Assembly (NCBI GenBank): GCA_964360785.1
Contig: CAYHXX010000002.1
Span: 92,107-156,106 of the forward strand
Length of the DNA stretch: 64,000 bases
Direction of reading: 5' to 3'
Source: an uncultured Gammaproteobacteria bacterium
GTDB lineage: Bacteria > Patescibacteriota > Microgenomatia > Woykebacterales > RBG-16-39-9b
The position numbers and the translations under genes are program-made. The notes beneath the pieces are model-generated. The model made no database searches, had not been told where the DNA came from, and saw nothing but the letters and a program-made list of their open reading frames with translations. The stretch's first letter is position 1. Every line of letters starts with the position of its first letter. This document shows positions 12,902 through 32,563 of this stretch, piece after piece.

Positions 12902-14002
12902 ATGTTTTTGGAAGAACTCCGAGTTTTGAATTTTCGCAACCTAACCCAACAAAAAATTTCCTTTAGTGAGGGTATCAATGTTTTTTACGGGGACAATGCC
13001 CAGGGCAAGACAAACTTTCTTGAGGCAATCTATTTACTTTCAACCAGCAAATCCTTTCGTACCAGAGCCGATCATGAACTGATTACTTGGGGTCAAGAAA
13101 GCTCCAAGGTGGTCGGTAAGGCATCTTTCCTGGAAATCGAGCTCCTCATAACACAGAACAAAAAAAGCTTGTTGGTTAATAAGCAGGAAAAGAGGCTGAC
13201 TGATTTGATTGGTTCTTTTCTCACCGTCCTCTTTACCCCAGCGGATATAGAGATTGTCAGTGGTTCTCCCGATAAGCGGCGTCGCTTTCTAGATCAGCTT
13301 GGCTGTTCTCTTAGTCGTGATTATCTGGTAAACCTCGTCAAGATTAGCCGAGTACTTAGATCCAGAAACCAGCTTTTGTGGGAGCTTAAGCAGGGTAGAA
13401 ACGTCGATCTGTCGGTTTGGGATCTGCAGTTAGCAAAACTTGCCAGTCTTATTTGGAGGTTTAGGTTTGAATTAATGCTAGCTTTACAAGAAAGTTTGCA
13501 AAAGCTTTCAAAAAAACTCACCGGAGGGGAACTGAAAATTATTTATGTGACCCAGGCTAAAGGGGAGAGCGACAAAAAAATAGAGGAAAACTTTTTGGAG
13601 GAACTACAGCTACTGCGAAACGAGGAGATACAAAAAAGCCAAACCCAGATCGGCCCACAAAGAGATGACTTCAAGATTTTATTGGAGGTAGAGGAGGGCG
13701 CAAAAGTAGTGAGTAAGGATTTGAATACTTACGGCTCTCGAGGAGAGCAGCGCGCGGCTAGTTTAGCTTTAAAGCTTTCAGAAATCGAGATTATCGAACA
13801 TGAAAAAAATACTCGACCCACTCTACTGCTGGATGATGTTTTGGGGGAGCTTGACCAAAACCACCAAAAATTGCTTTTAGCACAGCTGAAGAAGGGCCAA
13901 TCTTTTTTGACAACAACAAGCATTGAAAGCTTTGGCCAAAACCTAATCGGAAAGTTTAAAAAGCTCAAAGTAGAGAAGGGTATAGTTACTATTGCTGATT
14001 AG
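12902..14002 (+). CDS. recF: DNA replication and repair protein RecF
   Basis: Walker A GDNAQGKTN, dnaA-dnaN-recF synteny. Confidence 0.9.
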   Translation: MFLEELRVLNFRNLTQQKISFSEGINVFYGDNAQGKTNFLEAIYLLSTSKSFRTRADHELITWGQESSKVVGKASFLEIELLITQNKKSLLVNKQEKRLTDLIGSFLTVLFTPADIEIVSGSPDKRRRFLDQLGCSLSRDYLVNLVKISRVLRSRNQLLWELKQGRNVDLSVWDLQLAKLASLIWRFRFELMLALQESLQKLSKKLTGGELKIIYVTQAKGESDKKIEENFLEELQLLRNEEIQKSQTQIGPQRDDFKILLEVEEGAKVVSKDLNTYGSRGEQRAASLALKLSEIEIIEHEKNTRPTLLLDDVLGELDQNHQKLLLAQLKKGQSFLTTTSIESFGQNLIGKFKKLKVEKGIVTIAD

Positions 14003-15848
14003 TTTCTGGGGCAGTTGGTGGCTGCGCTTGTTCCTGTTTTGAATCCTGCTCCATCTGATTGAGCTCTTGTGGGTTGGAGGTAATCAGCAGGTGTTCGTGA
14101 GGAGCCGCCTGGACTCTGATAGCAACATGGTTATTACCAGCAAAGAATAGGCCTTCGCCGACATCGGCTGACAGTAACAAGTTGCGCTCTCCTTCTGAAA
14201 GATAGAACGTCTCGACAACCTGTTCGATTGAAGCAGAGGACTGCTTTAGCAATATTTGAATTGAAGAGTTGGTTACGATTGCTTTCCCAAAATCGGTTGC
14301 GAGGAAGTCCTCAACATCCTGAGTGACCGTGGTCAAACCCAGATAATATTTACGCGCTCTTTTTGCGATTGAGTAAATGAAGGAAGCGCTGTCCGGGTGT
14401 TTCATCATATACCAAGCCTCATCCACAAGTAGAAGTCTGCGTTTTCTTTCCTTTTTTACCCTCGTCCAGATGTAGTCAAGGATGATAAACATTCCGATTG
14501 GTCGCAATTCATCCTCCAGATCGCGAATGGAGAAAACAGTAAAGGTGTTTTTAATATCAATTGTCGAGGCCTGATCAAATATTCCTGAAAGTGAGCCTTT
14601 GATAAATTTCTCGATTCTCTCAGCCATGGATTTGGCTTCGGGCTCGGCACTGTTGAGCAGAACCTCGTACAGATCTTCCAAAACCGGAGGAGTCCTTGTT
14701 TGTGTATTTGGGTCTGGAGTGATCCCTTTGAGTTTGTAGGTTGTGATTAAGGCACGGTCCAAAATTGCATCTTCAGTTGGAGTCATGTTACCAAGAATTA
14801 TTCGGAAAAGGGAGTGCAGAGAAAGAATTTTTAGGCCCAATTCATTTTCCCCCTCAGTGTAAACCCCAGAAAGATCAAAAGGATTGATTTTCGAAGCCTG
14901 GTTTCCCGAAAATCGAATATACTCACCACCAATAGCTTCACACAAGGTTTGGTACTCGTTCTCTGGGTCGATGACTATCACCTCAGTTCCTAACATCAAG
15001 CTGCGCATCGCCTCTAACTTGGTCATGTAACTTTTACCCGCCCCGCTTTTGGCAAAGATGACACTGTTAGCATTCTCTAGACTGAAGCGATCAAAAATAA
15101 CCAAGGAACCATTGTGCTCGTTTATTCCATACAAAATTCCTTCGTTGGCGGTAAGTTCCGAGGAAGTAAATGGAAAAGTAGTTGCTAGGGAAGTCGTATC
15201 CATATTTCTGGTTACCAAGAGCTTATCAGTGAAAGTCGGAAGTGTGGTCTGAAAGCCCATCTCTTGCTGTAAGGTTGCGTGTTTTGACACGATCAGCAGG
15301 GAACCTAGTGTGGATTCGATCTGTTTAGTTATTGAGTTGAGTTCCTCCAGAGTTTCTGCTGGGATTGTGATGTAGAAAGAAAACTGGAAAAAGCGTTCAA
15401 TGCCAGCAACAAGTTGTTCTTGTAGTGATTGGGCATCTTCGAGCGCGATTCGGACAGCCGGGTCAATGACGTGACCTTTTTCAAAATCTCCTTGAACCGT
15501 AGCCTGCATCTCAGCGATCTTACGACGCAAGTCATCCAGAATACCCTTAGCCTCGACAGGATAGTAATAGAAGGCGATATCAAGTGTATGATCAAAATTG
15601 ATAATAGGTGCCAGCCAGTTTGCTCCAACAAAACGTGGGTAGCCGGAAATAAACAACGTTCGATAAAAGGTTTCTCCAACACGAACATGATCAAAATCCA
15701 CTTGCAGTGCTGGGGGTGCGATAATATCTTTGACGTCGACCATACCCCGGCCTAAGGTATTGCGTACCTTTTCTCTGGTTTGAGCTAGTTCAAGCTCTTC
15801 TTGAGTTGCTTTCTTATCTTTTTTCTTACCACCAAATAAAGACATCAT
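13989..15848 (-). CDS. VirB4/TrbE-like conjugation/T4SS ATPase
   Basis: Walker A FAKSGAGKSY, Walker B LLLVDEAWYMM, VirB4-like N-terminal region; last gene of a four-gene coupled operon. Confidence 0.7.
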   Translation of the reverse strand: MMSLFGGKKKDKKATQEELELAQTREKVRNTLGRGMVDVKDIIAPPALQVDFDHVRVGETFYRTLFISGYPRFVGANWLAPIINFDHTLDIAFYYYPVEAKGILDDLRRKIAEMQATVQGDFEKGHVIDPAVRIALEDAQSLQEQLVAGIERFFQFSFYITIPAETLEELNSITKQIESTLGSLLIVSKHATLQQEMGFQTTLPTFTDKLLVTRNMDTTSLATTFPFTSSELTANEGILYGINEHNGSLVIFDRFSLENANSVIFAKSGAGKSYMTKLEAMRSLMLGTEVIVIDPENEYQTLCEAIGGEYIRFSGNQASKINPFDLSGVYTEGENELGLKILSLHSLFRIILGNMTPTEDAILDRALITTYKLKGITPDPNTQTRTPPVLEDLYEVLLNSAEPEAKSMAERIEKFIKGSLSGIFDQASTIDIKNTFTVFSIRDLEDELRPIGMFIILDYIWTRVKKERKRRLLLVDEAWYMMKHPDSASFIYSIAKRARKYYLGLTTVTQDVEDFLATDFGKAIVTNSSIQILLKQSSASIEQVVETFYLSEGERNLLLSADVGEGLFFAGNNHVAIRVQAAPHEHLLITSNPQELNQMEQDSKQEQAQPPTAPETNQQ

Positions 15849-16573
15849 TTACTTTCTCCTTCCGTTGGGACCTGCACTGGAGGCTCACCCATGGTTGGCT
15901 GTAGTGCTGGTTCAACTATTGGTGTCGTGTACTCAGTAGTATTTAGGGCTGCCTTTTGCTCGAGCGAGACGTCAGGGTTGTATAGATCATAGAAAAACTC
16001 CACCAGTTCTTCAGTGGTGAGTTCGTGCGCTTTGACCCCAATACGGGAAACTTGTTTAACCAGATGGTCAACCTTTGGACCGAGATTTACCTTTGCTTTT
16101 TCCAAAATGTGCCACCTGTCTTCAACCGGAGCTTTTTTTGCAAAAAGACTTGGGATCGTTAGAGCCTGAGACAGTGTTGTGCCGGCGTAGGGAATGACAA
16201 TATAAAAACGTTTATCAAGAACTTGGTTTCGTGAAACTAGCTCCTTTATGAAATTTGAGTAGAGATTTATTTGGTAAGCGAGCTGTTGGTTAGTAGCTTT
16301 TTGCTCAGCCTCAGAGAGAAGTTTCAGATAATTTGAAATATCCATTCTCTTGGAGCGGACTATGACTTGAATTGGATAGGTCAAAGAGTTGAGTAAGGCT
16401 GCATAAGCAAAAATCATCGAGTCTTGCTCGCGCTCAGAAAGAAGGTCAAAATTTACGGCGGTTGTTTGTAGGATGGAAACAGCGTTACCGTTGCGAAGAA
16501 TGACGATATTATCGCGAATATCGTCGATGTCTAAGTGTTGCTGGGTAGATGCAATTGGTTTTTTGGCAGCCAT
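15845..16573 (-). CDS. hypothetical T4SS-associated protein (242 aa)
   Basis: Stop overlaps the ATPase start (ATGA coupling); no TM helix; no family recognised. Confidence 0.5.
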   Translation of the reverse strand: MAAKKPIASTQQHLDIDDIRDNIVILRNGNAVSILQTTAVNFDLLSEREQDSMIFAYAALLNSLTYPIQVIVRSKRMDISNYLKLLSEAEQKATNQQLAYQINLYSNFIKELVSRNQVLDKRFYIVIPYAGTTLSQALTIPSLFAKKAPVEDRWHILEKAKVNLGPKVDHLVKQVSRIGVKAHELTTEELVEFFYDLYNPDVSLEQKAALNTTEYTTPIVEPALQPTMGEPPVQVPTEGESK

Positions 16574-16601: not shown

Positions 16602-19466
16602 CTACCTTGCCTTTATTTCAATGGGTGGCAGTATTCCTCCATTAACTTCGACTTCTATAATATCAAAATCAAAGCCCGGTTTTTCAAGTTCCAGTGTATA
16701 AACACCGTTTGGTAGCGGTGTCGACACTGCAAACTGTCCAATCTTATTAGTTTTAAAGGCCCTGACCGGATCACCTTCTTGATCTTTAACTATAATGACT
16801 ACTGTGTCCATGAGCAAACCTTGGATGTTTTTAACTATTCCGTTGATGACATTAGGTACTGTCGGGGTGTTTGGTAGCATTTTTCCGTATGCGGGTACAG
16901 CCTTGACTACTGGACGAGAACGTTCCTCAAGTTTGCGAGCCTCCCTTTGGCGTTCGAGACCCTTTATTTCGGCGATTATTTTTGCCTTTTCCTCTGGGGA
17001 GCGCTCTTTCTTTTCCTGTACTTTCAGAGCCTCGACCTGAGTGTTTGTTGGGTTGCTACCTGTTTTAGGAGGTTGCCCGGACTTTACGGCTGCAGGTTTT
17101 TCGCCCATTTTCGCGAGCATAGTTTGCAATTCAGAATTTATTCTTCGCCGCTGTGCTACTGCTTTAATTTCGTCAAATTGTCTAGAAACTTCACTTTGAC
17201 GCCCAAGTGCCTCCAGGTTTTGCAGCATCTGAGATCTTTCCTCTTTTGAAAGAGCTTCCAAGGATTTGTTACCCGCTGTTGTGAGGCTATTTTTAAGTTT
17301 AATCAAATCCTCTTTCAAGGACTCTTGTGTTATAGCCTCGGTTTTTTCTGGGGCTTGGTTTTTACTTTGTGCTAGTTCCTTTTGCTTTTCCTCTTCAGTC
17401 CTCTTTTTTTGTTGCAGCTCTTCTTTGGCAGTGCGAATTGCCTCTTTCGCAGCCTCCTCTTTCGCAGCAGTCTCAAGTATTTGCTTTTCAATGTCGCCTT
17501 GAAGGGACATTGTCGCTCCAGTTGCAATTGTTGGTAGGTTCCCGGTTGGGTTACCGGTTGTTTGTACTGGAATTGCTTGAATATTTATTTGTGCTGTTGG
17601 GTTACCAGGTAGTACTCTGGGTTGCCCAACAGAAATATTAGCTGGAACTTCAATTGTTGCAGCGCTGTCGTTGGCGGGTGCGGAGGTTGCTACTGCTTTA
17701 ATATTGGCCTGACCAGGAGCACTACTTTGTTGCAATGAATCCACGGAAACGTTTGTTGGGATGGATGTCGTACCAGACTGTGCTGCTGTTAGTTGGTTTA
17801 CTGTTTGTGGAGCCTGCTTCTTCAAAGCTTCCGAGACTATTTTTTCGATTTCCTGAGTTGAAGTCGACGACTGTCCCATTTGTTTTTCAACAGCAGCATT
17901 AATTAGGGTTTGTACTCGGTCGTTATCCAGGTTTTGTACTTCTTTTACCGTCTCTCTTTCAATGACCTTTGGTTGCAGTTCCTGCGTCTTCTCCAAGATT
18001 GCTTTCTCAACTGCTGCTTGTACTTGCTCCGGCTGAGCCTCTTCCTTGCGTACAATTTCCTTAATTTCCGGAGGTTGGGTGACTGTGGATTGAATTACTG
18101 CCGCGTTTGAACCTACCGTGTCTGCGGGCAAATTGATCTTAATTCCTGCTGGTTCCTGAGCCTTAATTAAGTTTATCGGACTGGAAATTTGACGAGTCGG
18201 AAGAGCATCTATATTGCCAGTATCAACCCCAACTATCTTTATTGTCTCAGGTTGCTTTTCTATAACAGGTCTTGGTTTTTCCAGACCCTCAAGTTTAAAG
18301 CTGATTTCCCTAGGTTTACGATGCATTCGCTCATGTTTCTCACGATGGCCTTCGATATTTTCAACTTTGTCTGTGAGCCAGTCAGTTTTTTGCTTGAGAT
18401 ATTTCAAAGCAATAGAGTGGCTGTTGACCAAGTTGGTCAAAGTATATTTCCAATCTGAGACTGCTTGCATCATCTTTTCGTCATAGGCTAGCTTTTGTTC
18501 CAGGGCGGAAAGCTCTTCAAAACTACGCTCCTTTTCCAAATTGGAAATAGTTGTGTCGATATGAAGCACTTCCTTGGTCAGAGTTTCAATTTCCCTCTCC
18601 AGATTTTCAATATGGGACTGAAGATTAGCAGTCGGCTCTGAAATTTCCTTCGGTTTGCTAGTTCCCACAACTAGCCTCTTTGGGAGCTCAGGTTTATGAG
18701 GCTGGACAAGAGTTTGCTGAGGCTGGTTTATTTGCGAGACTCCAGCAGGTCTTGTAGCCACAGTCTGTGGGGTTTGAATGTTTACTGGCGGTTGAGAAAT
18801 TGGTTTTTGCAATGTTGGTGCAGCCGTGTTTTGGTTAGAGACCCTTGGAGTTTTAAATACCATTGTCTTAGCCTCATTTGAGGCTTTAGTATTAGGCTGA
18901 GTTTGCTGGTTAGCGATTTCAAGCGAGATTTTTTGCCTAAGTTGCTCAAAAAGGACCTTATTGATGCCTTCCAATTGCTTTTTCAAGTCTTCACTCCTGG
19001 CTTTGGCCTGCTCGGTTGTTAAGGTTGGGGCTGGTGCTGTCTTTGGTTGGGAGGGTTCCGGTGCTCTTTGGATGGAAGATTGAGCTGGTGGTGCCACTAG
19101 AGTCTGTTTTTGATAAACAGTTCCTTGATTCACCTTGGCTTTGATCTGTTCATGTAGGTTCGAAGCGAGCTCTATCAGGCCCGCACCTTTGATAGAAACC
19201 TGGCCATCCTTGTTAACAACGGTTGGGGATACGGATCTCTGGCTGGTATTCTTCACCGCGCGTACATAGGTGTCGCCGCTGGCAACGCTGATTGTTGCTA
19301 CAGGGGCAAAACCAACCTCGCCGGCAAGTTTTGGCTGGCTTGTTTTAGGAGTACTGACGCTGCGAGGGTTTTCTCCAGGCAGAAAACGATGCTGCACAAC
19401 TGGTTCAGGAGTAGGTGTATTTATCTTATTTCTTAATGTCGCGTTCACGGCTACTTGGGAATTCAT
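16602..19466 (-). CDS. large Pro/Gln-rich coiled-coil protein with C-terminal carboxypeptidase-regulatory-like beta domain (954 aa)
   Basis: Low-complexity and coiled-coil regions; C-terminal ...QFAVSTPLPNGVYTLELEKPGFDFD... beta-sandwich; translationally coupled to the prgI-like gene. Confidence 0.6.
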   Translation of the reverse strand: MNSQVAVNATLRNKINTPTPEPVVQHRFLPGENPRSVSTPKTSQPKLAGEVGFAPVATISVASGDTYVRAVKNTSQRSVSPTVVNKDGQVSIKGAGLIELASNLHEQIKAKVNQGTVYQKQTLVAPPAQSSIQRAPEPSQPKTAPAPTLTTEQAKARSEDLKKQLEGINKVLFEQLRQKISLEIANQQTQPNTKASNEAKTMVFKTPRVSNQNTAAPTLQKPISQPPVNIQTPQTVATRPAGVSQINQPQQTLVQPHKPELPKRLVVGTSKPKEISEPTANLQSHIENLEREIETLTKEVLHIDTTISNLEKERSFEELSALEQKLAYDEKMMQAVSDWKYTLTNLVNSHSIALKYLKQKTDWLTDKVENIEGHREKHERMHRKPREISFKLEGLEKPRPVIEKQPETIKIVGVDTGNIDALPTRQISSPINLIKAQEPAGIKINLPADTVGSNAAVIQSTVTQPPEIKEIVRKEEAQPEQVQAAVEKAILEKTQELQPKVIERETVKEVQNLDNDRVQTLINAAVEKQMGQSSTSTQEIEKIVSEALKKQAPQTVNQLTAAQSGTTSIPTNVSVDSLQQSSAPGQANIKAVATSAPANDSAATIEVPANISVGQPRVLPGNPTAQINIQAIPVQTTGNPTGNLPTIATGATMSLQGDIEKQILETAAKEEAAKEAIRTAKEELQQKKRTEEEKQKELAQSKNQAPEKTEAITQESLKEDLIKLKNSLTTAGNKSLEALSKEERSQMLQNLEALGRQSEVSRQFDEIKAVAQRRRINSELQTMLAKMGEKPAAVKSGQPPKTGSNPTNTQVEALKVQEKKERSPEEKAKIIAEIKGLERQREARKLEERSRPVVKAVPAYGKMLPNTPTVPNVINGIVKNIQGLLMDTVVIIVKDQEGDPVRAFKTNKIGQFAVSTPLPNGVYTLELEKPGFDFDIIEVEVNGGILPPIEIKAR

Positions 19467-20086
19467 TGCGAACCCTCCTCGGAGGAGCGCTCTTTAGTTT
19501 TTTCGATAACCTCGCTCATACGTTGAAAGCCAATTCCACTATCTGGAGTCAGAGTGGCCACTTTTGGAGAAAGGCTTGGGCTGGTAAATACTTGCCTATC
19601 CTTTTCGAAAGGTGACAAGTTTAGTTGCTCTAACCGACGTTCTTCGTTGATATCAACTAAGCTTTTTGATTTAATCTTGCGATGGCTTTGGAGATAGAGG
19701 TTTAGTTTTGTTGGGTCGGAGACTATCCTTGGTTCGACAGCTTCCGATTGTCTGTGCAGGTACATCGAAAATTGTGGCTCCAAAAAACCGATTTCTTTAG
19801 GTTCGCGGTGCCAAACCCGCACGTTCGGGGAGTAAACTGTATGAAAAAAAGCCGCGATCCAGCGTTCAAAAGGCATATTATTGAGACTAACAAAGGCCAA
19901 AGCCACTGCAAACGCAGCCACGGGGATTCCAACCAAGAGAACGACGAAAAAAGGAAGTTTGGCCGAGTAGATAATGAAGATAAAGATGGCCGCCGCAGCT
20001 AGATAGCCAAATTGGCGGATAGTTAGGAAACCAATGAGCTTGAATTCAAACCCAGTGATATTTTGTGGAACAGGGTGGCTTTGCAT
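19463..20086 (-). CDS. PrgI/TcpE-like (VirB3 analogue) two-TM conjugation membrane protein
   Basis: FEFKLIGFLTIRQFGYL motif and two TM helices typical of the PrgI/TcpE family. Confidence 0.5.
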   Translation of the reverse strand: MQSHPVPQNITGFEFKLIGFLTIRQFGYLAAAAIFIFIIYSAKLPFFVVLLVGIPVAAFAVALAFVSLNNMPFERWIAAFFHTVYSPNVRVWHREPKEIGFLEPQFSMYLHRQSEAVEPRIVSDPTKLNLYLQSHRKIKSKSLVDINEERRLEQLNLSPFEKDRQVFTSPSLSPKVATLTPDSGIGFQRMSEVIEKTKERSSEEGSQ

Positions 20087-20467: not shown

Positions 20468-20479
20468 CTGACTACAATT

Positions 20480-20692: not shown

Positions 20693-20859
20693 GAATTACC
20701 CAACTAAAATATTATAGGATTGACATTAGCTTCATTTTGTGCTAAACTGCAGCAAATTAATATACAGGAGTATTTGTGAACGTATTTAAACTAATCAAGA
20801 AGAAGACCTCAGAAGGACCGCCAAGGTAATTGGCGGTGCCCAAGCGTAAGCTTGAGCAA

Positions 20860-26235: not shown

Positions 26236-28338
26236 ATGCCCTACTATCCTGACCCTGAAGAAGCTCCAGAACCCTCGGAAGACTTTTCCCCACAACAAAG
26301 TGGCGGTGGTTCCTCCGAAGAAGACGAACGCCGTAGTGGTCGTAGTCAACTAGACAATCTCCAAGATGCCAACCGTTTGCGCGAAAAACTTTCTGGAAAA
26401 GGCGAAGGCGGTGCTGGAGCGACAGATGCTGCTGGAACTGCTGGGGCTGGTGGAGAAATGGCGGGTGAGGGAGCAGGAACCGCAACTGGAAGTGCCGGAG
26501 GCGCTGCTGTTACAGGTTCAGGTGGTGCTGCAGCTAGCAGTGCTGGTGGGGCCGCAGCTTCTGCTACAGCAGGTGGTGCAGGTGCGGCAACCGGAACTAT
26601 TGCTACAGGAGGCGCGGCTGTCTCTACCTCAGCTGGGGTTGGGGTCGGAGGGGCACTTTCATCGACTGGAGTGGGTGCGTTAGTAGGAGCGCCATTAATA
26701 GCCGCGTCAGCGGCAACAAACGATAAAGGACGTAAAGCTATAATTTTTGGTGGTTGCGGTTGTTTAAGTCTAGTCGTATTTTTGGCGGTAGGAGTGATGG
26801 GAGCTTTTGTTGGTGGTGGGAACGGGGAGGCAGCGGGTGATGGTGGCAATAATTCAAGCCGCTTAACGATTTCTAAAACAGTAACTCCAAATATTATTCC
26901 CAAAGGAACGGCGAATGCCGTGGTTACCTATACCATTACTGTGAAAAATCAGTCGGATAAAGATGCCGCTAATGTGGTGGTCTCTGATACTTTTTCAAGC
27001 GCACCTGGGGAGGCAACGGCATTTGCAGCTAGCATTACTGGCTATGAAGCTTCTTATTCGATCGGTATACTCTCGCCTGGTCAAACCAACACCAAGACTT
27101 TTACTGTTACTATCCCCAACACCGATTTCGATCCTGGTTGGGTACTAACCAACCTAGCAACCGTCACCGGAAGCATTGATAGTGGTAATGAATCTTCAAG
27201 TGCAAATGCAACTATAATAATCGGCAACCCACCAATAATCCCGCCAACTGGTTGCCCGATGGATGGTGACATCACTACTCCTTATGGTTCTAATATCCCA
27301 GGCTATGTTGTCGTAGATGGTAAAATACTCGACCATGATGGTGTTGATTTGGGAAACCACAAAAAAGATAACGCGCCGGTTTACGCAACCATCAGTGGTA
27401 TTCTCACCTATGCAAACTACAACTCGCAAAACAACGGTGAACTAACCCAAAGGATTATTATCAGTAACGGGATTTATCAAGTGGAATACTTTCACCTTTC
27501 TGAAAACGGTAAAGCCCCTGAAGGCCCAGTTGTGATTGGACAAAAAATTGGTAATGAGGATGAGACTGGTTATACTGCTGGGGAGCACTTGCATTATGAA
27601 ATCAGGGTCAATGGTAACCGCGTCAACCCAACGGAGTTTATGTCAGCAAGTCTTAATTATACCCAACCAGCAGCTAATGACTTTACTGGCTTTGAGGACT
27701 TGGATCCTTGGGGGACTTGCAACACATTGCCGCAAGAGCCAATAACTAACCCCCCGCCACTGCCACCGGTTGCTTCCGAATACTTTAACTTTTCAGATGC
27801 TGGTGATAAAGCTTGGACCCAAGCTGAAAAAGACGCCGTTTCCAAAGCAATACTGACACCGGTACAATCAGCCACCTGGAAGAATTTGGTCTTTGGTGCT
27901 GGTAAGGTTACCATTACTCGCAGTTTTGCTGACACATCTTGCCCGGACGTTTGTAGTGGTTATGCATCTGGAGCAAACACCTTAATTTTAAGGGATTACT
28001 TTTTCACTCTCCCTGATAACGGTCAGGTATTTGTGATCACCCACGAGTTAACCCATATTCTTCAGAAAAGAAGTCCGCAAGTTGAAACAGCTTTTAGAGC
28101 AAGCCCTGCCTACCAAGAATTTTTGGATAAGGGAGTTGTCCGTAGCTACCCACTTTGTTCCGGCTCTGGTGAGACTTGCCCTGGATACGACGATATCACC
28201 CCTTTTAACGAAAATTTTGCAGAAATGGCGGGAAACTATGTTGCTGATCGGAATAATTACCCGCTGGATTTTCCGTTAGAATATCCAGAGCATTACAAAT
28301 TTGCACGCGACAGTCTTTTTGGAGGGACAAGCTTCTAA
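26236..28338 (+). CDS. multidomain cell-wall hydrolase: Gly/Ala-rich N-tail, TM, DUF11 repeat, M23 peptidase, HExxH metalloprotease-like domain
   Basis: M23 motifs HDGVDLG and GEHLHYEIRVNGNRVNP; HELTHILQ; DUF11-like TYTITVKNQSD. Confidence 0.75.
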   Translation: MPYYPDPEEAPEPSEDFSPQQSGGGSSEEDERRSGRSQLDNLQDANRLREKLSGKGEGGAGATDAAGTAGAGGEMAGEGAGTATGSAGGAAVTGSGGAAASSAGGAAASATAGGAGAATGTIATGGAAVSTSAGVGVGGALSSTGVGALVGAPLIAASAATNDKGRKAIIFGGCGCLSLVVFLAVGVMGAFVGGGNGEAAGDGGNNSSRLTISKTVTPNIIPKGTANAVVTYTITVKNQSDKDAANVVVSDTFSSAPGEATAFAASITGYEASYSIGILSPGQTNTKTFTVTIPNTDFDPGWVLTNLATVTGSIDSGNESSSANATIIIGNPPIIPPTGCPMDGDITTPYGSNIPGYVVVDGKILDHDGVDLGNHKKDNAPVYATISGILTYANYNSQNNGELTQRIIISNGIYQVEYFHLSENGKAPEGPVVIGQKIGNEDETGYTAGEHLHYEIRVNGNRVNPTEFMSASLNYTQPAANDFTGFEDLDPWGTCNTLPQEPITNPPPLPPVASEYFNFSDAGDKAWTQAEKDAVSKAILTPVQSATWKNLVFGAGKVTITRSFADTSCPDVCSGYASGANTLILRDYFFTLPDNGQVFVITHELTHILQKRSPQVETAFRASPAYQEFLDKGVVRSYPLCSGSGETCPGYDDITPFNENFAEMAGNYVADRNNYPLDFPLEYPEHYKFARDSLFGGTSF

Positions 28339-29352
28339 ATGGAAATTCAAAAACTGCGCTATTTGTTTGGGGACGTTTTCAAAATATGTTTGATAACGAC
28401 CTTAGTAGGTGTTGTAATCTTTGGTGTTTATGCCTTTGTTACGCGTGACAATGACATTTACGGAAAGCTGCCAAAACCCTATTTTCAAAACTCTCTTACC
28501 AGGGAAGTCGTCTGGGATGCCTCCGCAGTTTCACTTGATACACCAGCACAGGAGGTGGTGTTTAAAGTTAAAAACCGCAAAATTTCTCGGGAGCAGTCCT
28601 GGGGATTAGCAGGAAAGTTGGGATTACCCAGGGGTGGAACAATCGAGTTGGATAAAAATAAGGACGAGCATTACTACACAAAAAATGCTACATCTGAGTT
28701 ATCCATTAATCTTACAGACGGAAGTGTACATTACAAAAACTCAGGAGTAACTGCCTCCACCTTAGCAACTTCAACTATAAATAAAACCCAGGCTGCTGCT
28801 GAGGCAAAAAAGTTCGTCGCTGGTTTAGGTATAAATACAAAGACTTATGATCTAAAGCAACCTAAATATGAATTTTTGCAACGTACCCCAGGATCAAACC
28901 ATCTGAGTGAGGTAAAGGAAAACAAGGCAAACATCGTTTATGTTTCTTTTAATCGGAAAATTGATGGTGTTGATGTTGTGACAGTCGGTGGTTTTGACTC
29001 TCTGTCAATTGGTTTAAATAATCAAAATCAAGTAATAAGCCTTAACTACTCGGTACTTGAAGTAATTGCCGATACAAACGCTAGTTACAAACTAATTTCA
29101 GAGGGTAGTGCTCAAAGCAAAATCAAAAAAGGTCAGGGAAATCTAAACCGTTATCTTATCGATGCTGAAGAAGCAGTCGCTAATCCATCTTTAATCAGTG
29201 TTGGTAAAGGCAAGACTTATTTTTACAATGACCAAAAAACAGAATTCCTCCAACCAATTTATGTTTTCGAGGCCGATGCTGTAACTGGGAACCAGGCGGA
29301 AAAAGCAGAAATTTATCTACCTGCCTTAAAAGATACTTATTTCTCAAAATAG
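28339..29352 (+). CDS. hypothetical membrane-anchored protein (337 aa), coupled to the upstream hydrolase
   Basis: Start abuts the upstream stop; N-terminal TM helix. Confidence 0.6.
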   Translation: MEIQKLRYLFGDVFKICLITTLVGVVIFGVYAFVTRDNDIYGKLPKPYFQNSLTREVVWDASAVSLDTPAQEVVFKVKNRKISREQSWGLAGKLGLPRGGTIELDKNKDEHYYTKNATSELSINLTDGSVHYKNSGVTASTLATSTINKTQAAAEAKKFVAGLGINTKTYDLKQPKYEFLQRTPGSNHLSEVKENKANIVYVSFNRKIDGVDVVTVGGFDSLSIGLNNQNQVISLNYSVLEVIADTNASYKLISEGSAQSKIKKGQGNLNRYLIDAEEAVANPSLISVGKGKTYFYNDQKTEFLQPIYVFEADAVTGNQAEKAEIYLPALKDTYFSK

Positions 29353-29361
29353 CTAACTAGT

Positions 29362-29784
29362 TTATTTACAGAAAGTAGCTGCGTCAGAGCCGGCGGTTGG
29401 TAAGCAGAAACTTCCTAGTCCGGGAATAGCCACAAAACCCACAATAATTGAGATGATTATATAGGCAGAAAGAATCACAATCAAACCGACTACGGCCCAA
29501 GTAAGGGTACCTCGAGCGGAGGTAAGTGCTTTGGGATCTCCTTGGGCGGTAATGAAGGCAACGCCACCTCGGATAAACATAAAAAGTACGGCAAATCCTG
29601 CAAAAGTAGCTATAACGGACACTAGGTTGGCAAAGACAATAACTAAGTCAGAAAGCTTGGCAAAGCCCCCTTCTTGGGGAACAGGAGTTACTGCGAAAGT
29701 GGGGCTAGCAGAAACAATTACTGCAAATGCCGCTAGGAGTAGTGAGCGGAGAAATTTCATGATTACTTTTGAATTAATCACCAA
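29362..29784 (-). CDS. T4SS pilin (TrbC/VirB2-like, CPR type)
   Basis: FIRGGVAFITAQGDPKALTSARGTLTWAVVGLIVIL motif. Confidence 0.7.
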   Translation of the reverse strand: MVINSKVIMKFLRSLLLAAFAVIVSASPTFAVTPVPQEGGFAKLSDLVIVFANLVSVIATFAGFAVLFMFIRGGVAFITAQGDPKALTSARGTLTWAVVGLIVILSAYIIISIIVGFVAIPGLGSFCLPTAGSDAATFCK

Positions 29785-29814
29785 AAGGCTAGCTATTTGA
29801 TGCCTGGAAAAACC

Positions 29815-30210
29815 TTAGCTCCCGCTTCCAGCAGTGTTATCTGTCCCAGGGAACTTGAAATTAAATATATCAATTCCAAAGACTTGGCCCAGTATCAAGG
29901 TAATTGCATAGGCAGCCACGACAACAATCAAACCGACAACAGCGGCAGTGATTCGGTCCCGTGCAGATTGGGCCGCCTTAGCGTCTCCGCCAGCAGTAAT
30001 CCACTGAATACCACCAACAATGATAAAGAAGAAAGTCAGTAATCCAGCGAAAAAGAAGAGTAACGAAAGAGCATTACTCATTAGCTTACCCATTTCTGGA
30101 AAAGGGATTCCACTTTTGTCAAAACCGGTAACGTCTTGAGCAAACGCAGGAGTTGCGGATGCCAGTAAGACTATGGTTGATGAGGCAAGCGACAATAAAC
30201 GTCGCATCAA
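29815..30210 (-). CDS. T4SS pilin paralog
   Basis: GGIQWITAGGDAKAAQSARDRITAAVVGLIVVVAAY. Confidence 0.7.
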   Translation of the reverse strand: MMRRLLSLASSTIVLLASATPAFAQDVTGFDKSGIPFPEMGKLMSNALSLLFFFAGLLTFFFIIVGGIQWITAGGDAKAAQSARDRITAAVVGLIVVVAAYAITLILGQVFGIDIFNFKFPGTDNTAGSGS

Positions 30211-30304
30211 ATAGTCACCTCCTTGAGGTTAGGAATACAAGATTCCTGATTAGAACGCAGTAATAGAGTTATTATATTCATAACAAATCCAGCATTTCAA
30301 GTGG

Positions 30305-30721
30305 TCAACTAAAACTAAAGCCACTAACAATCCGAATTCCAAAAACTTTCTCCAAGATCAAAGCAATTGCATAGGCAGCAACGACAATGATCAGACCGAC
30401 GACAGCGTTGGTCAGGCGGCGGCGTGCCGAGTCCAGCGCTTTCTGATCTCCACCCGAACTGATCCACTGAATCCCGCCAATGACGAGATTGAAAAACATG
30501 GCTACCCCAGCAACAAAGAACGCAAGGGATAAGAGAATATTGAAAATATCCCCAAGATTATTAAGACTGGGCAAAGGATTTTTCAGGCTAAATATTGGGC
30601 TAGCATCACCACCACTGTCACCACTTCCTGAAGGCGGGGTTGTAGCCGCTGCTTTCACTGACGCTACCCGCGAGAGAAAGATAGCAAACCCAGAGAAAAA
30701 TGTAAGCAAATATCTTTTCAT
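30305..30721 (-). CDS. T4SS pilin paralog
   Basis: GGIQWISSGGDQKALDSARRRLTNAVVGLIIVVAAY. Confidence 0.7.
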   Translation of the reverse strand: MKRYLLTFFSGFAIFLSRVASVKAAATTPPSGSGDSGGDASPIFSLKNPLPSLNNLGDIFNILLSLAFFVAGVAMFFNLVIGGIQWISSGGDQKALDSARRRLTNAVVGLIIVVAAYAIALILEKVFGIRIVSGFSFS

Positions 30722-31119
30722 CCAAATTTTATAAAACTTTTAATTCCAAAGAGTGTAAAGAGCAGTTGGGTGATCAAAAAAGCGGCAACAACGATGACCA
30801 GACCGATGACAGCCTGGGTCAAGGTTGCACGAGCGGCCGTAGCTGCTTTCTCATCGCCACCGGACATAATGTAGCGGATACCACCAAGGATAAACATAAA
30901 GAAAAAGATAATACCAGCAACAGCGTAGAGTAGTTGCACTAGTTTGCCAATAATTTCGTTGATGTCGGTTGGCAGAAAAAGCTTGTCTTGGTCGATTATT
31001 CCGACTCCCTTCGTCCCACTATCTTTATCTTCAGGTAGAGCGGCGAGAATTGGGTTTGCAAATAAAGTAAGAAAAACTAGAACAGAGTAGAAAAGAGCTT
31101 GTATTTTGGCAAACTTCAT
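30718..31119 (-). CDS. T4SS pilin paralog
   Basis: GGIRYIMSGGDEKAATAARATLTQAVIGLVIVVAAF. Confidence 0.7.
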   Translation of the reverse strand: MKFAKIQALFYSVLVFLTLFANPILAALPEDKDSGTKGVGIIDQDKLFLPTDINEIIGKLVQLLYAVAGIIFFFMFILGGIRYIMSGGDEKAATAARATLTQAVIGLVIVVAAFLITQLLFTLFGIKSFIKFG

Positions 31120-32204
31120 GTAATCAATCCTCCACGGTTAAAGACAACTTGTGCGATTAATCTAATTATGACCAAAGCCGAGATGAGAAGCAATAACCCC
31201 ACGGCAGCGTTGGTCAAGGTACTGCGAGCTTCGGAAACAGCTTTTTCGTCCCCGCGGGCAATCATATAGCGCAAACCACCCCAGAGCAGCATAAAGAAAA
31301 AAGCTAAACAACCAACTGCCAATAAAGCAAGCAATATTTGGGTCACCAACTCACCAAAGCTTTGGTAATCTTTGCCAACACAATTTCCAGTAGCGAGTTG
31401 GAAAGCACAAGAAAGATCAAACGAGTTGTTAGTAATTTTTCCAACCTCGTTACTACCTCCAAAAAAACTAATTCCAAAACGTTTTTCGAAAACTCCGCTG
31501 ACAGCAGCCGACCCCAGCACTATTACAAGACCGATTACCGATCCGGTCATTGTCCCTCGAGCACTATCTACTGCTTTTGGATCACCTCGGGAGGTTAGAT
31601 AACGCAGAGCCCCGATCGAGAAGACTATGACAGCTAGGAAGCCAACCAAAGTAAAAACAATTACCAGAGCGTTGGTAATCAAACCCCCCAAACTAAATTT
31701 TCCTCCGGTCGGGTCCGTAACTTTACTTAGAGTAGCATCGGTTATAACACCAGAACCGTCAGGGCCGCTTGGCGAACCTTCGCTTGGAGATCCGTCACTA
31801 GGTGGTGGGGTAGTTGTTGGAGGTGTGGAGGTAGAGGTCCCAGGAGTAAAACTTTGCCCATCACTGGGTGAGCAGGGTCCAAAACCAACAAACCCAACCC
31901 TGGTGGTATAGGTATGCCCATTAATAAAGCCAAGGCCCTGGGGAAGAGTAATAGATTTTTGGCTTTCACCAGTTGAAATAGTTGCATTGATAACTTGACC
32001 AACTAAAGCCCCATTTTTGGAAGGGTCAACCACATAAACAGTATATTTCCCTGGTTGACCAGTAAGGCCCACAATTGCATCAGAATTGGAAGTTACTGTC
32101 GCGACAGAAAAACTACAAGTCGCCGCATTAACTTGCTGAGGGGTTTGAAGAAAGAAGGATCCAAAGGAAAATAGTAAGATTGGAAGAAAAAGAAATTTTT
32201 TCAT
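31116..32204 (-). CDS. large pilin-family protein: N-terminal Ig-like/ST-rich domain plus two pilin repeats
   Basis: Two copies of the G..RY..(S/A)RGD.KAV..AR.T.T..(V/A).GL motif in the C-terminal half. Confidence 0.65.
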   Translation of the reverse strand: MKKFLFLPILLFSFGSFFLQTPQQVNAATCSFSVATVTSNSDAIVGLTGQPGKYTVYVVDPSKNGALVGQVINATISTGESQKSITLPQGLGFINGHTYTTRVGFVGFGPCSPSDGQSFTPGTSTSTPPTTTPPPSDGSPSEGSPSGPDGSGVITDATLSKVTDPTGGKFSLGGLITNALVIVFTLVGFLAVIVFSIGALRYLTSRGDPKAVDSARGTMTGSVIGLVIVLGSAAVSGVFEKRFGISFFGGSNEVGKITNNSFDLSCAFQLATGNCVGKDYQSFGELVTQILLALLAVGCLAFFFMLLWGGLRYMIARGDEKAVSEARSTLTNAAVGLLLLISALVIIRLIAQVVFNRGGLIT

Positions 32205-32563
32205 TAAAGTGGTAATCCTAAAATATCGACTCCGATAAGATTTAGTAAAAATACGGAAAAAACTATCAGTAGTAGTCCAATGATTGCGCTCGTGATCGTC
32301 TCACGTGCTTCTTGAATCGCCTTTGGATCACCTTGGGAGAAGACCAGACGAAAGCCTCCGAAGACAATCATCAAAAAGGCAATCCCACCACCAACACCAA
32401 TGGCTATGGTCAAGATAGTATTGACTAATTCGGTGGGGTTAGTATTGATCTTCCCAAGAGCGGTGCAAACCGTGCCCTCTGGGCAATCCTCGGCTCGTAC
32501 AATGAACGCTGTTTTTAAAAAACCAAGAATAACAAAGGACCAAGCAAAGAGTTTTTTATACAT
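32204..32563 (-). CDS. T4SS pilin paralog
   Basis: GGFRLVFSQGDPKAIQEARETITSAIIGLLLIV. Confidence 0.7.
   Translation of the reverse strand: MYKKLFAWSFVILGFLKTAFIVRAEDCPEGTVCTALGKINTNPTELVNTILTIAIGVGGGIAFLMIVFGGFRLVFSQGDPKAIQEARETITSAIIGLLLIVFSVFLLNLIGVDILGLPL

What the first reader, a model, noticed from the sequence alone, without database searches (positions are those of the whole stretch)
13989..32563. Dispersed Gram-positive-type T4SS-like apparatus
Components recognisable by motif are spread over ~19 kb. They are a PrgI/TcpE-like protein, a 954-aa low-complexity protein, a 242-aa protein and a VirB4-like ATPase (a 4-nt-overlap coupled operon). A VirB6-like polytopic protein and an M23/HExxH lytic enzyme follow. 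Six consecutive TrbC/VirB2-like pilin paralogs share a G-x-I/R-x-x-x-x-G-D-x-K-A-x-x-x-A-R-x-x-I/L-T-x-A-V-V-G-L core. No relaxase, coupling protein (VirD4) or oriT is visible. That fits the non-conjugative, possibly host-interaction or DNA-uptake T4SS-like systems reported in CPR bacteria, whose function is unresolved.
Basis: partly seen in the sequence, partly recalled or inferred. Interest (0 to 1): 0.7.

Follow-up and report, generated by a model that had tools for sequence, protein, structure and literature searches.

The report
Patescibacterial type IV secretion gene cluster

Summary
Window 13989-32563 is one contiguous locus next to dnaA-dnaN-recF. It encodes these parts:
- a VirB4 ATPase split into a TrsD-like N-terminal protein (242 aa) and a 619-aa body;
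- PrgI/VirB3;
- a membrane-anchored DUF11-M23 hydrolase;
- six Sec-type pilin genes carrying seven PF18895 domains.

No coupling protein or relaxase turned up among the 42 window ORFs scanned.

This is the Patescibacteria T4SS of Wang 2023 (PMC10633639) and Quinonero-Coronel 2025 (PMC12102498), including the pilin array and the position near oriC.

- The 242-aa protein is the VirB4 N-domain (TrsD), not VirB8.
- The locus is contiguous, not dispersed.

Additions:
- The 954-aa protein belongs to a conserved family defined by a Cna-B/CarboxypepD_reg-like C-terminal domain.
- The skipped 943-aa GC-rich ORF belongs to a rare family (39 representatives in 1.84 billion). It has no detectable domain and sits in the same slot in seven related loci.
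- Behind its conserved promoter lies a leader with a 17-aa upstream ORF and alternative antiterminator/terminator pairings.
- In 50 of 69 related loci this slot holds a large, acidic, mostly TM-less protein. These proteins are not detectably homologous between lineages.

The parts
13989..15848 (-). VirB4-family ATPase, C-terminal two-thirds (619 aa). Walker A is GAGKS and Walker B is LLLVDEAW.
   Evidence: NF045971 scores 395 bits (cut-off 325) and covers profile positions 184-735 of 752. P-loop_TraG 1.1e-29 and AAA_10. PDB 4ag5 1e-56 and TrwK 2.7e-4.
15845..16573 (-). TrsD-like protein (242 aa), homologous to the N-terminal region of VirB4. A 4-nt overlap couples it translationally to the ATPase gene.
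   Evidence: NF041427 TrsD 6.8e-9, which is below the curated cut-off. It matches VirB4_plasma profile positions 102-233 and TIGR00929 positions 19-129, while the 619-aa protein matches positions 292-883 and 238-726 of the same profiles. The two proteins therefore tile one VirB4. The homologue in L002 is flagged TraC-like.
16602..19466 (-). 954-aa low-complexity, coiled-coil-like protein with no TM segment. It ends in a conserved beta-sandwich domain (about residues 860-953). Its family is a conserved partner of PrgI, TrsD and VirB4.
   Evidence: PF13620 CarboxypepD_reg 3.5e-6, sub-threshold. In more than 25 loci only the C-terminal domain is conserved, in proteins of 285-954 aa; in the loci mapped it lies next to PrgI. 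A profile of this domain hits the SdrD B-type domain at 2.9e-5 and carboxypeptidase M at 1e-3 in PDB.
19463..20086 (-). PrgI/VirB3-like membrane protein (207 aa, two TM segments).
   Evidence: PF12666 4.5e-12, above the gathering score. TM segments at residues 21-39 and 48-66.
20303..20692 (+). Small DUF4258-like (54 aa, 20303-20467) and DUF2283 (70 aa, 20480-20692) gene pair. It looks like a toxin-antitoxin-type insert and is probably not part of the apparatus.
   Evidence: PF14076 2.9e-7 and PF10049 1e-15.
20720..21175 (+). Promoter and leader (about 420 nt) of the 943-aa gene. It contains TTGACA-N17-TAAACT (20720-20748), a 17-codon upstream ORF (20776-20829, VNVFKLIKKKTSEGPPR*), an intrinsic terminator hairpin (about 20858-20905) and a further structured region up to the SD/ATG.
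   Evidence: RNA fold z = -8.8. 69% nt identity over 482 nt with L006. The promoter, upstream ORF and terminator recur in L006, L002, L008, L009 and L085. The 3' end of the upstream ORF is complementary to the 5' arm of the terminator, beating 97-100% of shuffles in the five loci tested.
21176..24007 (+). 943-aa soluble, acidic, Trp/Arg-rich orphan protein (GC 0.55 against about 0.44 in the flanks). It is a lineage-specific gene that occupies a fixed slot in this locus type.
   Evidence: No match in Pfam, NCBIfam, PHROGs, PADLOC or PDB. 39 relatives among 1.84e9 representatives. Same slot in L002, L003, L004, L006, L007, L008 and L085, with a weak match (E 1.6e-4) in L009.
24076..26052 (-). 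VirB6-fold polytopic membrane protein (658 aa): the putative translocon channel subunit.
26236..28338 (+). Membrane-anchored cell-wall hydrolase (700 aa). It has a Gly/Ala-rich N-terminal segment, a TM segment at 169-187, DUF11, Peptidase_M23 with its motifs intact (HDGVD, HLH), and a variable C-terminal HExxH extension. It is a functional analogue of VirB1.
   Evidence: PF01551 8.7e-15 and PF01345 2.5e-9. TM segment. M23 motifs are conserved in the L002, L007 and L009 homologues, whereas HExxH occurs only here and in L006.
28339..29352 (+). 337-aa bitopic protein (TM at 16-34 plus an extracytoplasmic domain of about 300 aa). Its function is unknown. Its topology makes it a candidate VirB8/TcpC-like scaffold, but this was not tested.
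   Evidence: No family or PDB match. Only four homologues. Proteins of 320-346 aa sit at the same position in L002, L003, L007, L009 and L085.
29362..32563 (-). Array of six VirB2-like pilin genes: 29362-29784, 29815-30210, 30305-30721, 30718-31119, 31116-32204 (two pilin domains) and 32204-32563.
   Evidence: PF18895 is above its gathering score in all six. TrbC and Mbov_0395 pilin-like matches are sub-threshold. Invariant motif G..GD.KA...AR...T....GL and 23-36% identity to the first pilin (29362-29784). A promoter-like site lies at 32607-32579.
32662..34326 (+). SpoIID-domain protein (a putative lytic transglycosylase with an N-terminal coiled coil).
   Evidence: PF08486 4.8e-14. It is adjacent to the pilin array in L002 and L006-L009 and present in about 21 of the fetched loci.

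Best explanation
The region is one contiguous, chromosomal, origin-proximal type IV secretion locus of the Patescibacteria type, derived from the monoderm MPF-FATA conjugation machinery.

Shown here by homology or fold:
- an energising VirB4 ATPase encoded as two translationally coupled pieces, a TrsD-like N-domain and a 619-aa body;
- its membrane partner PrgI/VirB3;
- a VirB6-fold polytopic channel protein;
- a membrane-anchored M23 endopeptidase, with a neighbouring SpoIID-type enzyme, in the place where VirB1 would open the wall;
- six Sec-exported VirB2-like pilins.

Inferred mechanism. VirB3, VirB4 and VirB6 form the cytoplasmic-membrane translocon. VirB4 extracts the sequence-diverse pilins from the membrane to build an extracellular pilus or conduit at the contact site with a host bacterium. 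Because no coupling protein or relaxase is present in the neighbourhood, the machine moves something other than conjugative DNA. The most likely cargo is proteins exported to the host, or host molecules taken up.

Two lineage-conserved extras probably belong to the system: the 954-aa protein with a Cna-B-like C-terminal domain, and the 943-aa soluble acidic protein. The 943-aa gene has its own promoter and a leader arranged like a leader-peptide transcription attenuator. It is the best candidate in the locus for a secreted substrate or specificity factor, but that role is speculation.
For: - Component identities: VirB4, TrsD, PrgI, pilins, M23; VirB6 fold.
- Location beside dnaA-dnaN-recF, with rnpA and yidC upstream.
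- Whole-locus synteny, dnaA through VirB4, TrsD, the 954-aa-like protein, PrgI, the large orphan, the VirB6-like gene, M23, a protein of about 330 aa, the pilins and SpoIID. It holds in independent metagenomes and MAGs (L002, L006-L009, L085).
- Across the 80 loci fetched, the VirB6-like gene usually co-occurs with 2-9 pilin ORFs.
- No T4CP or relaxase domain in the 42 window ORFs scanned.
- Literature. The same component set, pilin arrays of 2-11 genes, oriC proximity and absence of a relaxase from most of these clusters are described across Patescibacteria (PMC12102498). The homologous cluster, including its pilins, is essential for epibiotic growth of Southlakia epibionticum (PMC10633639. 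Review PMC12857230).
- The 943-aa gene. It holds a fixed slot in seven further loci. Its leader is conserved, with upstream-ORF/terminator complementarity that covaries between loci.
Against: - Function is inferred from homology and from one cultivated saccharibacterium. Nothing shows that a pilus forms or what is transported.
- The pilin fold was not modelled here, and PF04956 (TrbC) matches are below threshold.
- VirB6 assignment rests on a predicted structure. Foldseek E-values were only 0.035-0.11, and there is no sequence-level match to any VirB6/TrbL family.
- No VirB8-like component was identified.
- A T4CP could be encoded elsewhere in the genome: the 2025 survey found VirD4-like genes far from virB4 in many Patescibacteria. 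Only 64 kb was available here.
- The 943-aa and 954-aa proteins have no signal peptide, no TM segment and no recognisable secretion signal, so their link to the apparatus is positional only.
- The AF2 model of the 943-aa protein failed (pLDDT 38).
Confidence: 0.85

Rival explanations
1. The apparatus is a DNA-import machine, like the archaeal Ced system or the Helicobacter ComB system. On this reading the pilus contacts a host cell or free DNA, and VirB4 powers the uptake of host DNA as a nucleotide source.
For: - The VirB4 body also matches the archaeal DNA-import ATPases CedB (5.7e-14) and CedD (1.1e-7), though far below their cut-offs.
- No relaxase or T4CP is present.
- A ComF-type double-zinc-ribbon protein lies about 6 kb downstream, at 38214-38879.
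- The authors of PMC12102498 propose import of DNA or other macromolecules.
Against: - The Ced matches are generic VirB4-superfamily similarity. The best match by far is the monoderm conjugative CD1110 family.
- In S. epibionticum, comEC-dependent DNA uptake is dispensable while the T4SS is essential. This shows that nucleotide supply does not depend on that route, but says nothing for or against T4SS import.
- No CedA or CedA1-like proteins were seen here.
Confidence: 0.2
2. The locus is a decayed integrative conjugative element or a plasmid-derived remnant that no longer has a cellular function.
For: - VirB4 is closest to conjugative-element families (CD1110, Mycoplasma ICE Mbov_0397).
- A toxin-antitoxin-like pair and a GC-rich gene lie inside the locus.
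Against: - All genes are intact, and several are translationally coupled.
- Gene order is conserved next to dnaA-dnaN-recF across divergent lineages with only 35-60% protein identity.
- No integrase, relaxase or repeats typical of an ICE were found.
- The GC-rich gene is syntenic and GC-rich in relatives too.
- Tn-seq shows that the homologous cluster is essential in a cultivated relative.
Confidence: 0.03
3. The six small proteins are not pilus subunits. They are membrane-resident components, for example of a channel collar or a signalling complex, and the system makes no extracellular filament, as in canonical Gram-positive T4SSs.
For: - Gram-positive MPF-FATA systems lack pili.
- The VirB6-like protein itself carries a weak pilin-like hairpin match at residues 196-282 (TrbC 0.005, Mbov_0395 0.008). 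This suggests the hairpin module can be an integral membrane part.
- No pilus has been imaged.
Against: - All six have the VirB2 architecture, with a Sec-type leader and two hydrophobic helices joined by a charged loop.
- Multiplication and sequence divergence (23-36% identity to the first pilin) are typical of surface-exposed subunits under diversifying pressure.
Confidence: 0.15

Closest known systems
Patescibacteria T4SS as defined in Southlakia epibionticum ML1 (SEML1_0006-0019; Wang et al. 2023, PMC10633639) and surveyed by Quinonero-Coronel et al. 2025 (PMC12102498)
   Same: - VirB4, TrsD, PrgI/VirB3, VirB6 and wall hydrolases, plus an array of about six divergent VirB2-like pilins.
- No relaxase or T4CP in the cluster.
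- Chromosomal, next to dnaA/dnaN.
- Pilin identity in the published range (about 25% on average).
   Different: - This member is of the Microgenomatia type; its nearest named relatives are Woykebacteria MAGs. The survey found sequence-recognisable VirB6 scarce in that class. Here the VirB6 role is assigned by fold to a 658-aa family with no sequence-level VirB6 match.
- It carries a 954-aa Cna-B-tailed protein between PrgI and TrsD, and a 943-aa orphan gene with an attenuator-like leader. Neither the carboxypeptidase-regulatory-like domain nor such an orphan is mentioned in the main text of the survey.
Staphylococcal pGO1/pSK41 trs conjugation module (TrsC-TrsD-TrsE), an MPF-FATA subclass
   Same: Gene order is a VirB3-like gene, then a TrsD-like gene, then VirB4, with TrsD as a separate protein related to the VirB4 N-terminus.
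   Different: - The plasmid systems are conjugative, with a relaxase, a T4CP and oriT.
- They have no VirB2 pilins.
- Their lytic enzyme, TrsG, is of the lytic-transglycosylase/CHAP type rather than M23.
- Here an extra 954-aa gene separates the VirB3-like gene from TrsD.
VirB6/TrwI of plasmid R388 and DotA of the Legionella Dot/Icm system
   Different: - Sequence identity is 8-13%, and there is no sequence-level match to any VirB6/TrbL family.
- The protein has a long N-terminal extracytoplasmic region and a disordered C-terminal tail of about 170 aa.
- The host is a monoderm, so there is no VirB5 or outer-membrane core complex.
Mycoplasma ICE conjugation proteins (Mbov_0397 VirB4, Mbov_0395 pilin-like protein)
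   Same: The second-best NCBIfam family for the ATPase is NF045975 (5.5e-79). The TrsD-like protein also matches its N-terminal part. The pilins give near-threshold matches to the Mbov_0395 pilin-like family (37.4 bits against a cut-off of 40).
   Different: All scores are below the curated cut-offs. Those are mobile ICE genes in wall-less bacteria, whereas this is a fixed chromosomal locus with wall hydrolases.
Leader-peptide transcription attenuators (trp/his-type attenuation; stalling peptides of the ermCL/tnaC type)
   Same: For the leader of the 943-aa gene: a short upstream ORF with its own SD, whose 3' part can pair with the 5' arm of a downstream intrinsic terminator. This gives mutually exclusive antiterminator and terminator structures.
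   Different: - There is no run of regulatory codons for a single amino acid.
- Most of the peptides examined have proline within the last four residues (GPPR*, IPI*, TPT*, ISP*, SPPG*), which suggests but does not prove stalling.
- The signal sensed is unknown.
- There is no Rfam family for it; the only match is a chance-level 22-bit hit to ctRNA_p42d.

Membership tests
Patescibacteria-type T4SS (Wang 2023; Quinonero-Coronel 2025) | VirB4 ATPase related to the monoderm (MPF-FATA) class | tested here: met
   NF045971 CD1110-family VirB4 scores 395 bits, above the 325 cut-off. PDB 4ag5 1e-56. No phylogeny placing it in the Patescibacteria clade was run.
Patescibacteria-type T4SS (Wang 2023; Quinonero-Coronel 2025) | Separate TrsD-like protein adjacent to virB4 | tested here: met
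   NF041427 TrsD 6.8e-9 and matches to the N-terminal region of VirB4 profiles, with a 4-nt overlap onto virB4. The score is below NCBIfam's curated cut-off, so homology is supported but equivalog status is not.
Patescibacteria-type T4SS (Wang 2023; Quinonero-Coronel 2025) | PrgI/VirB3 homologue near virB4 | tested here: met
   PF12666 scores 46.8 bits, above the 27-bit threshold.
Patescibacteria-type T4SS (Wang 2023; Quinonero-Coronel 2025) | VirB6-like polytopic protein | tested here: met
Patescibacteria-type T4SS (Wang 2023; Quinonero-Coronel 2025) | Array of divergent VirB2-like pilin genes in the cluster | tested here: met
   Six ORFs with seven PF18895 domains, all above the gathering score, at 23-36% identity to the first pilin.
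Patescibacteria-type T4SS (Wang 2023; Quinonero-Coronel 2025) | No relaxase or coupling protein in the cluster; chromosomal, often near oriC | tested here: met
   No such domains in the 42 window ORFs scanned. dnaA-dnaN-recF abut virB4. The rest of the genome was not available.
Patescibacteria-type T4SS (Wang 2023; Quinonero-Coronel 2025) | Required for epibiotic growth on a host | not testable with these tools
   The organism is an uncultivated groundwater bacterium. Essentiality is known only for S. epibionticum.
Conjugative MPF-FATA T4SS (pCF10, pGO1, CTn2, ICESaNEM316 prototypes) | Relaxase, oriT and a VirD4/TcpA-type coupling protein | tested here: not met
   None was found within the 64-kb window. 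No oriT search was possible without a cognate relaxase.
Conjugative MPF-FATA T4SS (pCF10, pGO1, CTn2, ICESaNEM316 prototypes) | VirB8-like (PrgL/TcpC/TraM, NTF2-like) scaffold protein | not tested
   The 337-aa bitopic protein has the right topology but no sequence-level match.
Conjugative MPF-FATA T4SS (pCF10, pGO1, CTn2, ICESaNEM316 prototypes) | VirB1-type hydrolase (lytic transglycosylase plus CHAP) | tested here: not met
   The hydrolase here is DUF11-M23, with a SpoIID-domain neighbour. It is a functional analogue, not a homologue.
VirB2/TrbC pilins | Cleavable signal peptide followed by two hydrophobic helices joined by a short charged loop | tested here: met
   Hydropathy and alignment of all seven domains. 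Signal peptides were judged by eye from the sequences.
VirB2/TrbC pilins | Sequence membership in PF04956 (TrbC/VirB2) | tested here: inconclusive
   Sub-threshold matches only: E 0.002 and 0.04 for two of the six. PF18895 is met for all six. There are no PDB sequence hits to solved pilins.
VirB2/TrbC pilins | Helical-hairpin fold and assembly into a filament | not tested
   No pilin model was built here. Published structure-based annotation exists for the S. epibionticum pilins.

The most novel reading that the evidence does not exclude
Next to the VirB6-like gene, these Patescibacteria T4SS loci keep a dedicated slot for a large (700-1400 aa), acidic, mostly TM-less protein. The protein is replaced or diverges beyond recognition between lineages; the 943-aa protein is one such family.

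On this reading these proteins are the long-sought transported substrates or host-specificity factors of the CPR T4SS. In the 943-aa family their production is gated by a translation-sensing leader-peptide attenuator.
Probability: 0.2. Interest if true: 0.7.

Novelty: new member of a known kind. Interest (0 to 1): 0.33.

Why it matters
The T4SS of Patescibacteria is thought to underlie their obligate epibiotic life. It is essential in the one species tested, yet what it transports is unknown.

This locus adds no new kind of system. It does supply three concrete handles:
- a fold-based VirB6 assignment for the Microgenomatia-type polytopic family, in a class where sequence searches found VirB6 scarce;
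- a conserved partner protein with a Cna-B-like tail;
- a fixed, hypervariable slot for a large protein, with an attenuator-like leader, which is a testable candidate for the missing substrate.

Tried and rejected
- AF2 on the 943-aa protein with five sequences failed (pLDDT 38), so no fold search was attempted on it.
- Sequence and profile searches of the 943-aa family found nothing: Pfam for 32 members, NCBIfam, PHROGs, PADLOC, PDB, and tblastn against the plasmid collection.
- I tested whether the large 'slot' proteins of other lineages are remote homologues of the 943-aa family or of each other. hhalign probabilities were all <=2.5%, so that idea is rejected. The conservation is positional only.
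- The 242-aa protein as VirB8: rejected, because it matches TrsD and the VirB4 N-terminus.
- The GC-rich 943-aa gene as a recent foreign insertion: rejected, because it is syntenic and GC-rich in relatives at 35-47% identity.
- The 337-aa, 658-aa and pilin profiles against PDB sequences gave no meaningful hits.
- Rfam on the leader gave only a 22-bit chance-level ctRNA match on the terminator hairpin.
- The GC-rich island at window 1-4000 was compared with the 943-aa family, the fetched loci and the phage records. Nothing matched.

Full report
**1. What is there**

The window is a low-GC (about 0.42-0.45) genome segment around a replication origin. Upstream lie genes reading as RNase H, Jag, YidC and RnpA. 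Then come dnaA (10259-11629), dnaN (11798-12898) and recF (12902-14002), and recF converges on the first gene of the finding. The dnaA, dnaN, recF and rnpA assignments carry Pfam support from an identical contig; the other names are my reading of the translations. That identical 7.5-kb piece is in an ENA assembly of Hainich groundwater (0.1 um fraction), and the proteins are also on a 169-kb NCBI contig. The nearest named relatives are Microgenomatia-type CPR MAGs: Woykebacteria first, then Curtiss-, Gottesman-, Woese- and Pacebacteria. Many MAG titles are obviously mislabelled.

**2. Checking the observation**

*VirB4.* The 619-aa protein is a VirB4:
- NCBIfam NF045971 (CD1110-family VirB4-like conjugal transfer ATPase) scores 395 bits against a cut-off of 325.
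- Pfam gives P-loop_TraG and AAA_10.
- The solved VirB4 C-terminal domain 4ag5 matches at 1e-56, and TrwK at 2.7e-4.

*The 242-aa protein.* It is not a VirB8 candidate. It matches TrsD (6.8e-9) and the N-terminal parts of VirB4 profiles: VirB4_plasma positions 102-233 and TIGR00929 positions 19-129. The 619-aa protein covers positions 292-883 and 238-726 of the same profiles. The two genes overlap by 4 nt and together tile a complete VirB4. This is the TrsD arrangement of pGO1 and of Patescibacteria.

*Other components:*
- The 207-aa protein is PrgI/VirB3, above the Pfam threshold.
- The six small ORFs all pass the PF18895 T4SS_pilin threshold. The 362-aa ORF holds two pilin domains behind an N-terminal extra region.
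Each domain has a leader-like segment and two hydrophobic helices.
- The 700-aa protein has one TM segment followed by DUF11, an M23 domain with intact HxxxD and HxH motifs, and a C-terminal HELTH extension. That extension is present only here and in L006.

*Small corrections.* The 954/242 junction is a 28-nt gap, not an overlap. The locus is contiguous, not dispersed.

**3. The VirB6 question**

The 658-aa polytopic protein has no sequence-level VirB6, TrbL or PrgH match. It has only a weak pilin-like hairpin match at residues 196-282. I collected 37 homologues and predicted the structure from a 36-sequence alignment. Overall mean pLDDT is 67.6. The membrane core, residues 206-480, is mostly 85-96.

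- Foldseek against PDB: the top five hits are all TrwI/VirB6 chains of the R388 T4SS (probability 0.98-1.0, E 0.035-0.11, target-normalised TM-score 0.44-0.52). The next hit has probability 0.12.

I take the VirB6 fold as established at the level of a predicted model. This matters a little, because the 2025 survey found sequence-recognisable VirB6 scarce in Microgenomatia and suspected extreme divergence.

**4. Comparative context**

A genome-collection scan with the VirB6-like family returned 80 loci. In them the VirB6-like gene usually sits beside 2-9 pilin ORFs. Where the flank reaches far enough, it also sits near PrgI, a 954-aa-like gene, TrsD and VirB4.

The closest loci (L002, L006-L009, L085) reproduce most or all of the window's order: dnaA, dnaN, recF, VirB4, TrsD, the 954-aa-like gene, PrgI, a large orphan, the VirB6-like gene, M23, a protein of about 330 aa, the pilins and SpoIID. 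L002 shows the full order; the other loci reach less far. The SpoIID-domain gene at 32662-34326 therefore probably belongs to the locus as a second wall-remodelling enzyme.

**5. The 954-aa protein**

Only its last 90-110 residues are broadly conserved (E 1e-8 to 1e-24 in more than 25 loci), at the end of proteins of 285-954 aa; in the loci mapped these lie next to PrgI. A profile of that domain hits SdrD B-type/Cna-B-like and carboxypeptidase-regulatory beta-sandwiches in PDB. The protein has no signal peptide or TM segment. Its role is unknown; possibilities include a scaffold, a wall-spanning element or a substrate. The main text of the 2025 survey does not mention a carboxypeptidase-regulatory-like domain.

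**6.

Between PrgI and the VirB6-like gene lie a DUF4258/DUF2283 pair and a 943-aa ORF (21176-24007). This ORF stands out at GC 0.55.

- It has no TM segment and is acidic and Trp/Arg-rich.
- It has no match in Pfam, NCBIfam, PHROGs, PADLOC or PDB.
- Only four homologues appear among 5.8e9 clusters, and a profile search of 1.84e9 representatives finds 39. None of the 32 members scanned carries a Pfam domain.
- It is not a stray insertion. Homologues at 35-47% identity occupy the same slot in L002, L003, L004, L006, L007, L008 and L085, with a weak match in L009. They are also GC-rich compared with their flanks.
- One distant relative that shares only the C-terminal domain of about 230 aa lies in a non-T4SS context.
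- AF2 failed on it (pLDDT 38).

Looking wider, 50 of 69 loci with enough downstream sequence have an ORF of at least 700 aa that converges on the VirB6-like gene and ends within 250 nt of it. Forty of these 50 have no TM-like segment, and their mean D+E content is 15.8%. For comparison, ORFs of at least 700 aa make up 7% of all ORFs of at least 100 aa in these loci. These slot proteins fall into several families with no detectable profile-profile similarity (hhalign probabilities <=2.5%) and no Pfam domains. The conservation is therefore positional and physicochemical, not a matter of sequence.

**7. A regulatory leader**

The 481 nt from 20700 to 21180, upstream of the 943-aa gene, fold far better than shuffled sequence (z = -8.8). 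They are 69% identical to L006 over 482 nt. The leader contains, in order:
- a promoter with TTGACA-N17-TAAACT, conserved in five further loci;
- an SD-preceded 17-codon upstream ORF (VNVFKLIKKKTSEGPPR*);
- one or two small hairpins;
- a strong intrinsic terminator.

Equivalent upstream ORFs of 17-22 codons are present in L006, L002, L008, L009 and L085, and most end in proline-containing tails.

In every case examined the 3' part of the upstream ORF is complementary to the 5' arm of the terminator, although the sequence itself differs between loci:
- window: CCUCAGAAG pairs with CUUCUGAGG
- L008: GCCCAGAGC pairs with GCUCUGGG
- L009: AAAGCCCGCC pairs with GGUGGGCUUU
- L085: CCAGAGCC pairs with GGCUCUGG

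In the five loci tested (window, L006, L002, L008, L009), duplex energies beat 97-100% of shuffled controls. This is the anatomy of a ribosome-dependent transcription attenuator. The mechanism is inferred, not shown. L007 has lost the upstream-ORF part.

**8. What is absent**

No VirD4/TcpA-type coupling protein, relaxase or integrase domain occurs in the 42 window ORFs scanned. A VirB8-like protein was not identified.

**9. Comparison with what is known**

Wang et al. 2023 showed that the homologous cluster of Southlakia epibionticum is essential for epibiotic growth. That cluster is Gram-positive-like, carries an essential pilin series and has no recognisable coupling protein or relaxase.

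Quinonero-Coronel et al. 2025 surveyed Patescibacteria and reported the same component set:
- VirB4, TrsD, PrgI/VirB3, VirB6 and VirB2-like pilins;
- arrays of 2-11 pilins at about 25% mean identity, especially in Microgenomatia and Saccharimonadia;
- proximity to dnaA/dnaN;
- relaxases in only about 100 of the genomes surveyed, and rarely near virB4.

A 2025 review lists these systems as a recognised T4SS subtype.

New relative to those papers, as far as I could check, and modest in weight:
- the fold-level VirB6 assignment for this polytopic family;
- the family with the Cna-B-like tail;
- the large hypervariable slot protein with its attenuator-like leader.

**10. Mechanism and confidence**

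I am about 0.85 confident of the identity and general architecture: a VirB3/VirB4(+TrsD)/VirB6 translocon, wall hydrolases and VirB2-like pilins, in a non-conjugative system.

The functional reading is inference from homology and from one cultivated relative. On that reading the system is a contact-dependent pilus or conduit to a host bacterium that moves proteins or host molecules rather than conjugative DNA. DNA import in the manner of the Ced or ComB systems remains a live rival (about 0.2).

The idea that the 943-aa-type slot proteins are the transported substrates or specificity factors is the most novel reading the data allow. I put it at about 0.2.

Noticed in passing
Its family is rare (39 representatives in 1.84e9) and has no known domain. 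It occupies the same slot in related loci. Its most conserved motif is YFPINEEIRDxARMxGHxQQ.
   Followed up: yes
window 20720-21175 (+): A conserved promoter and a structured leader of about 420 nt (z = -8.8). The leader holds a 17-codon upstream ORF whose 3' end can pair with the 5' arm of a downstream intrinsic terminator. The pairing covaries across six loci. It looks like a leader-peptide attenuator and has no Rfam family.
   Followed up: partly
L005-L084 (loci fetched with the VirB6-like family): In 50 of 69 loci a large (700-1420 aa), acidic, mostly TM-less, domain-less ORF converges on the VirB6-like gene. These proteins form several families with no detectable mutual homology, so this is a positionally conserved, sequence-hypervariable slot.
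   Followed up: partly
window 1-4000: A second GC-rich island (0.53-0.54 against about 0.42). It has only short ORFs on both strands (for example 421-1101, 2640-3146 and 3456-3860, all on the minus strand). It has no significant Pfam or PADLOC match (only sub-threshold Pfam hits at E about 0.01-0.06), no similarity to the 943-aa family or the fetched loci, and no phage match. Its nature is unknown.
   Followed up: partly
window 20303-20692 (+): A DUF4258-like (54 aa) and DUF2283 (70 aa) gene pair, of toxin-antitoxin type, is inserted between PrgI and the 943-aa gene's promoter. No equivalent gene is called in that intergenic gap of L002 or L085.
   Followed up: partly
window 24076-26052 (-), residues 196-282: The VirB6-fold protein carries a weak VirB2/TrbC-like and Mbov_0395 pilin-like hairpin match at the start of its membrane core. 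One homologue (P0055) has a precomputed PF04956 hit. This hints at a shared origin of, or a docking mimicry between, VirB6 and the pilins.
   Followed up: no
window 31116-32204 (-): One pilin gene encodes a tandem fusion. It has a signal peptide, an extra N-terminal region of about 140 aa with a Pro/Ser/Thr-rich linker, and then two complete pilin domains.
   Followed up: no
window 34367-37220 (+): bPH_2 (180 aa), a 77-aa ORF and a 682-aa protein without domains follow SpoIID. L002 has the same order (bPH_2, DUF5657, 672 aa), so the conserved neighbourhood may extend beyond the pilin array.
   Followed up: no
window 37767-44189 and 49036-49110: A tmRNA gene (tag ANKAFSPSYAYA) and seven tRNA genes (four Ser, two Arg, one Asn) are interspersed with housekeeping genes downstream of the locus. 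A ComF-type double-zinc-ribbon protein lies at 38214-38879 and a Fic-domain protein at 50215-51339.
   Followed up: no
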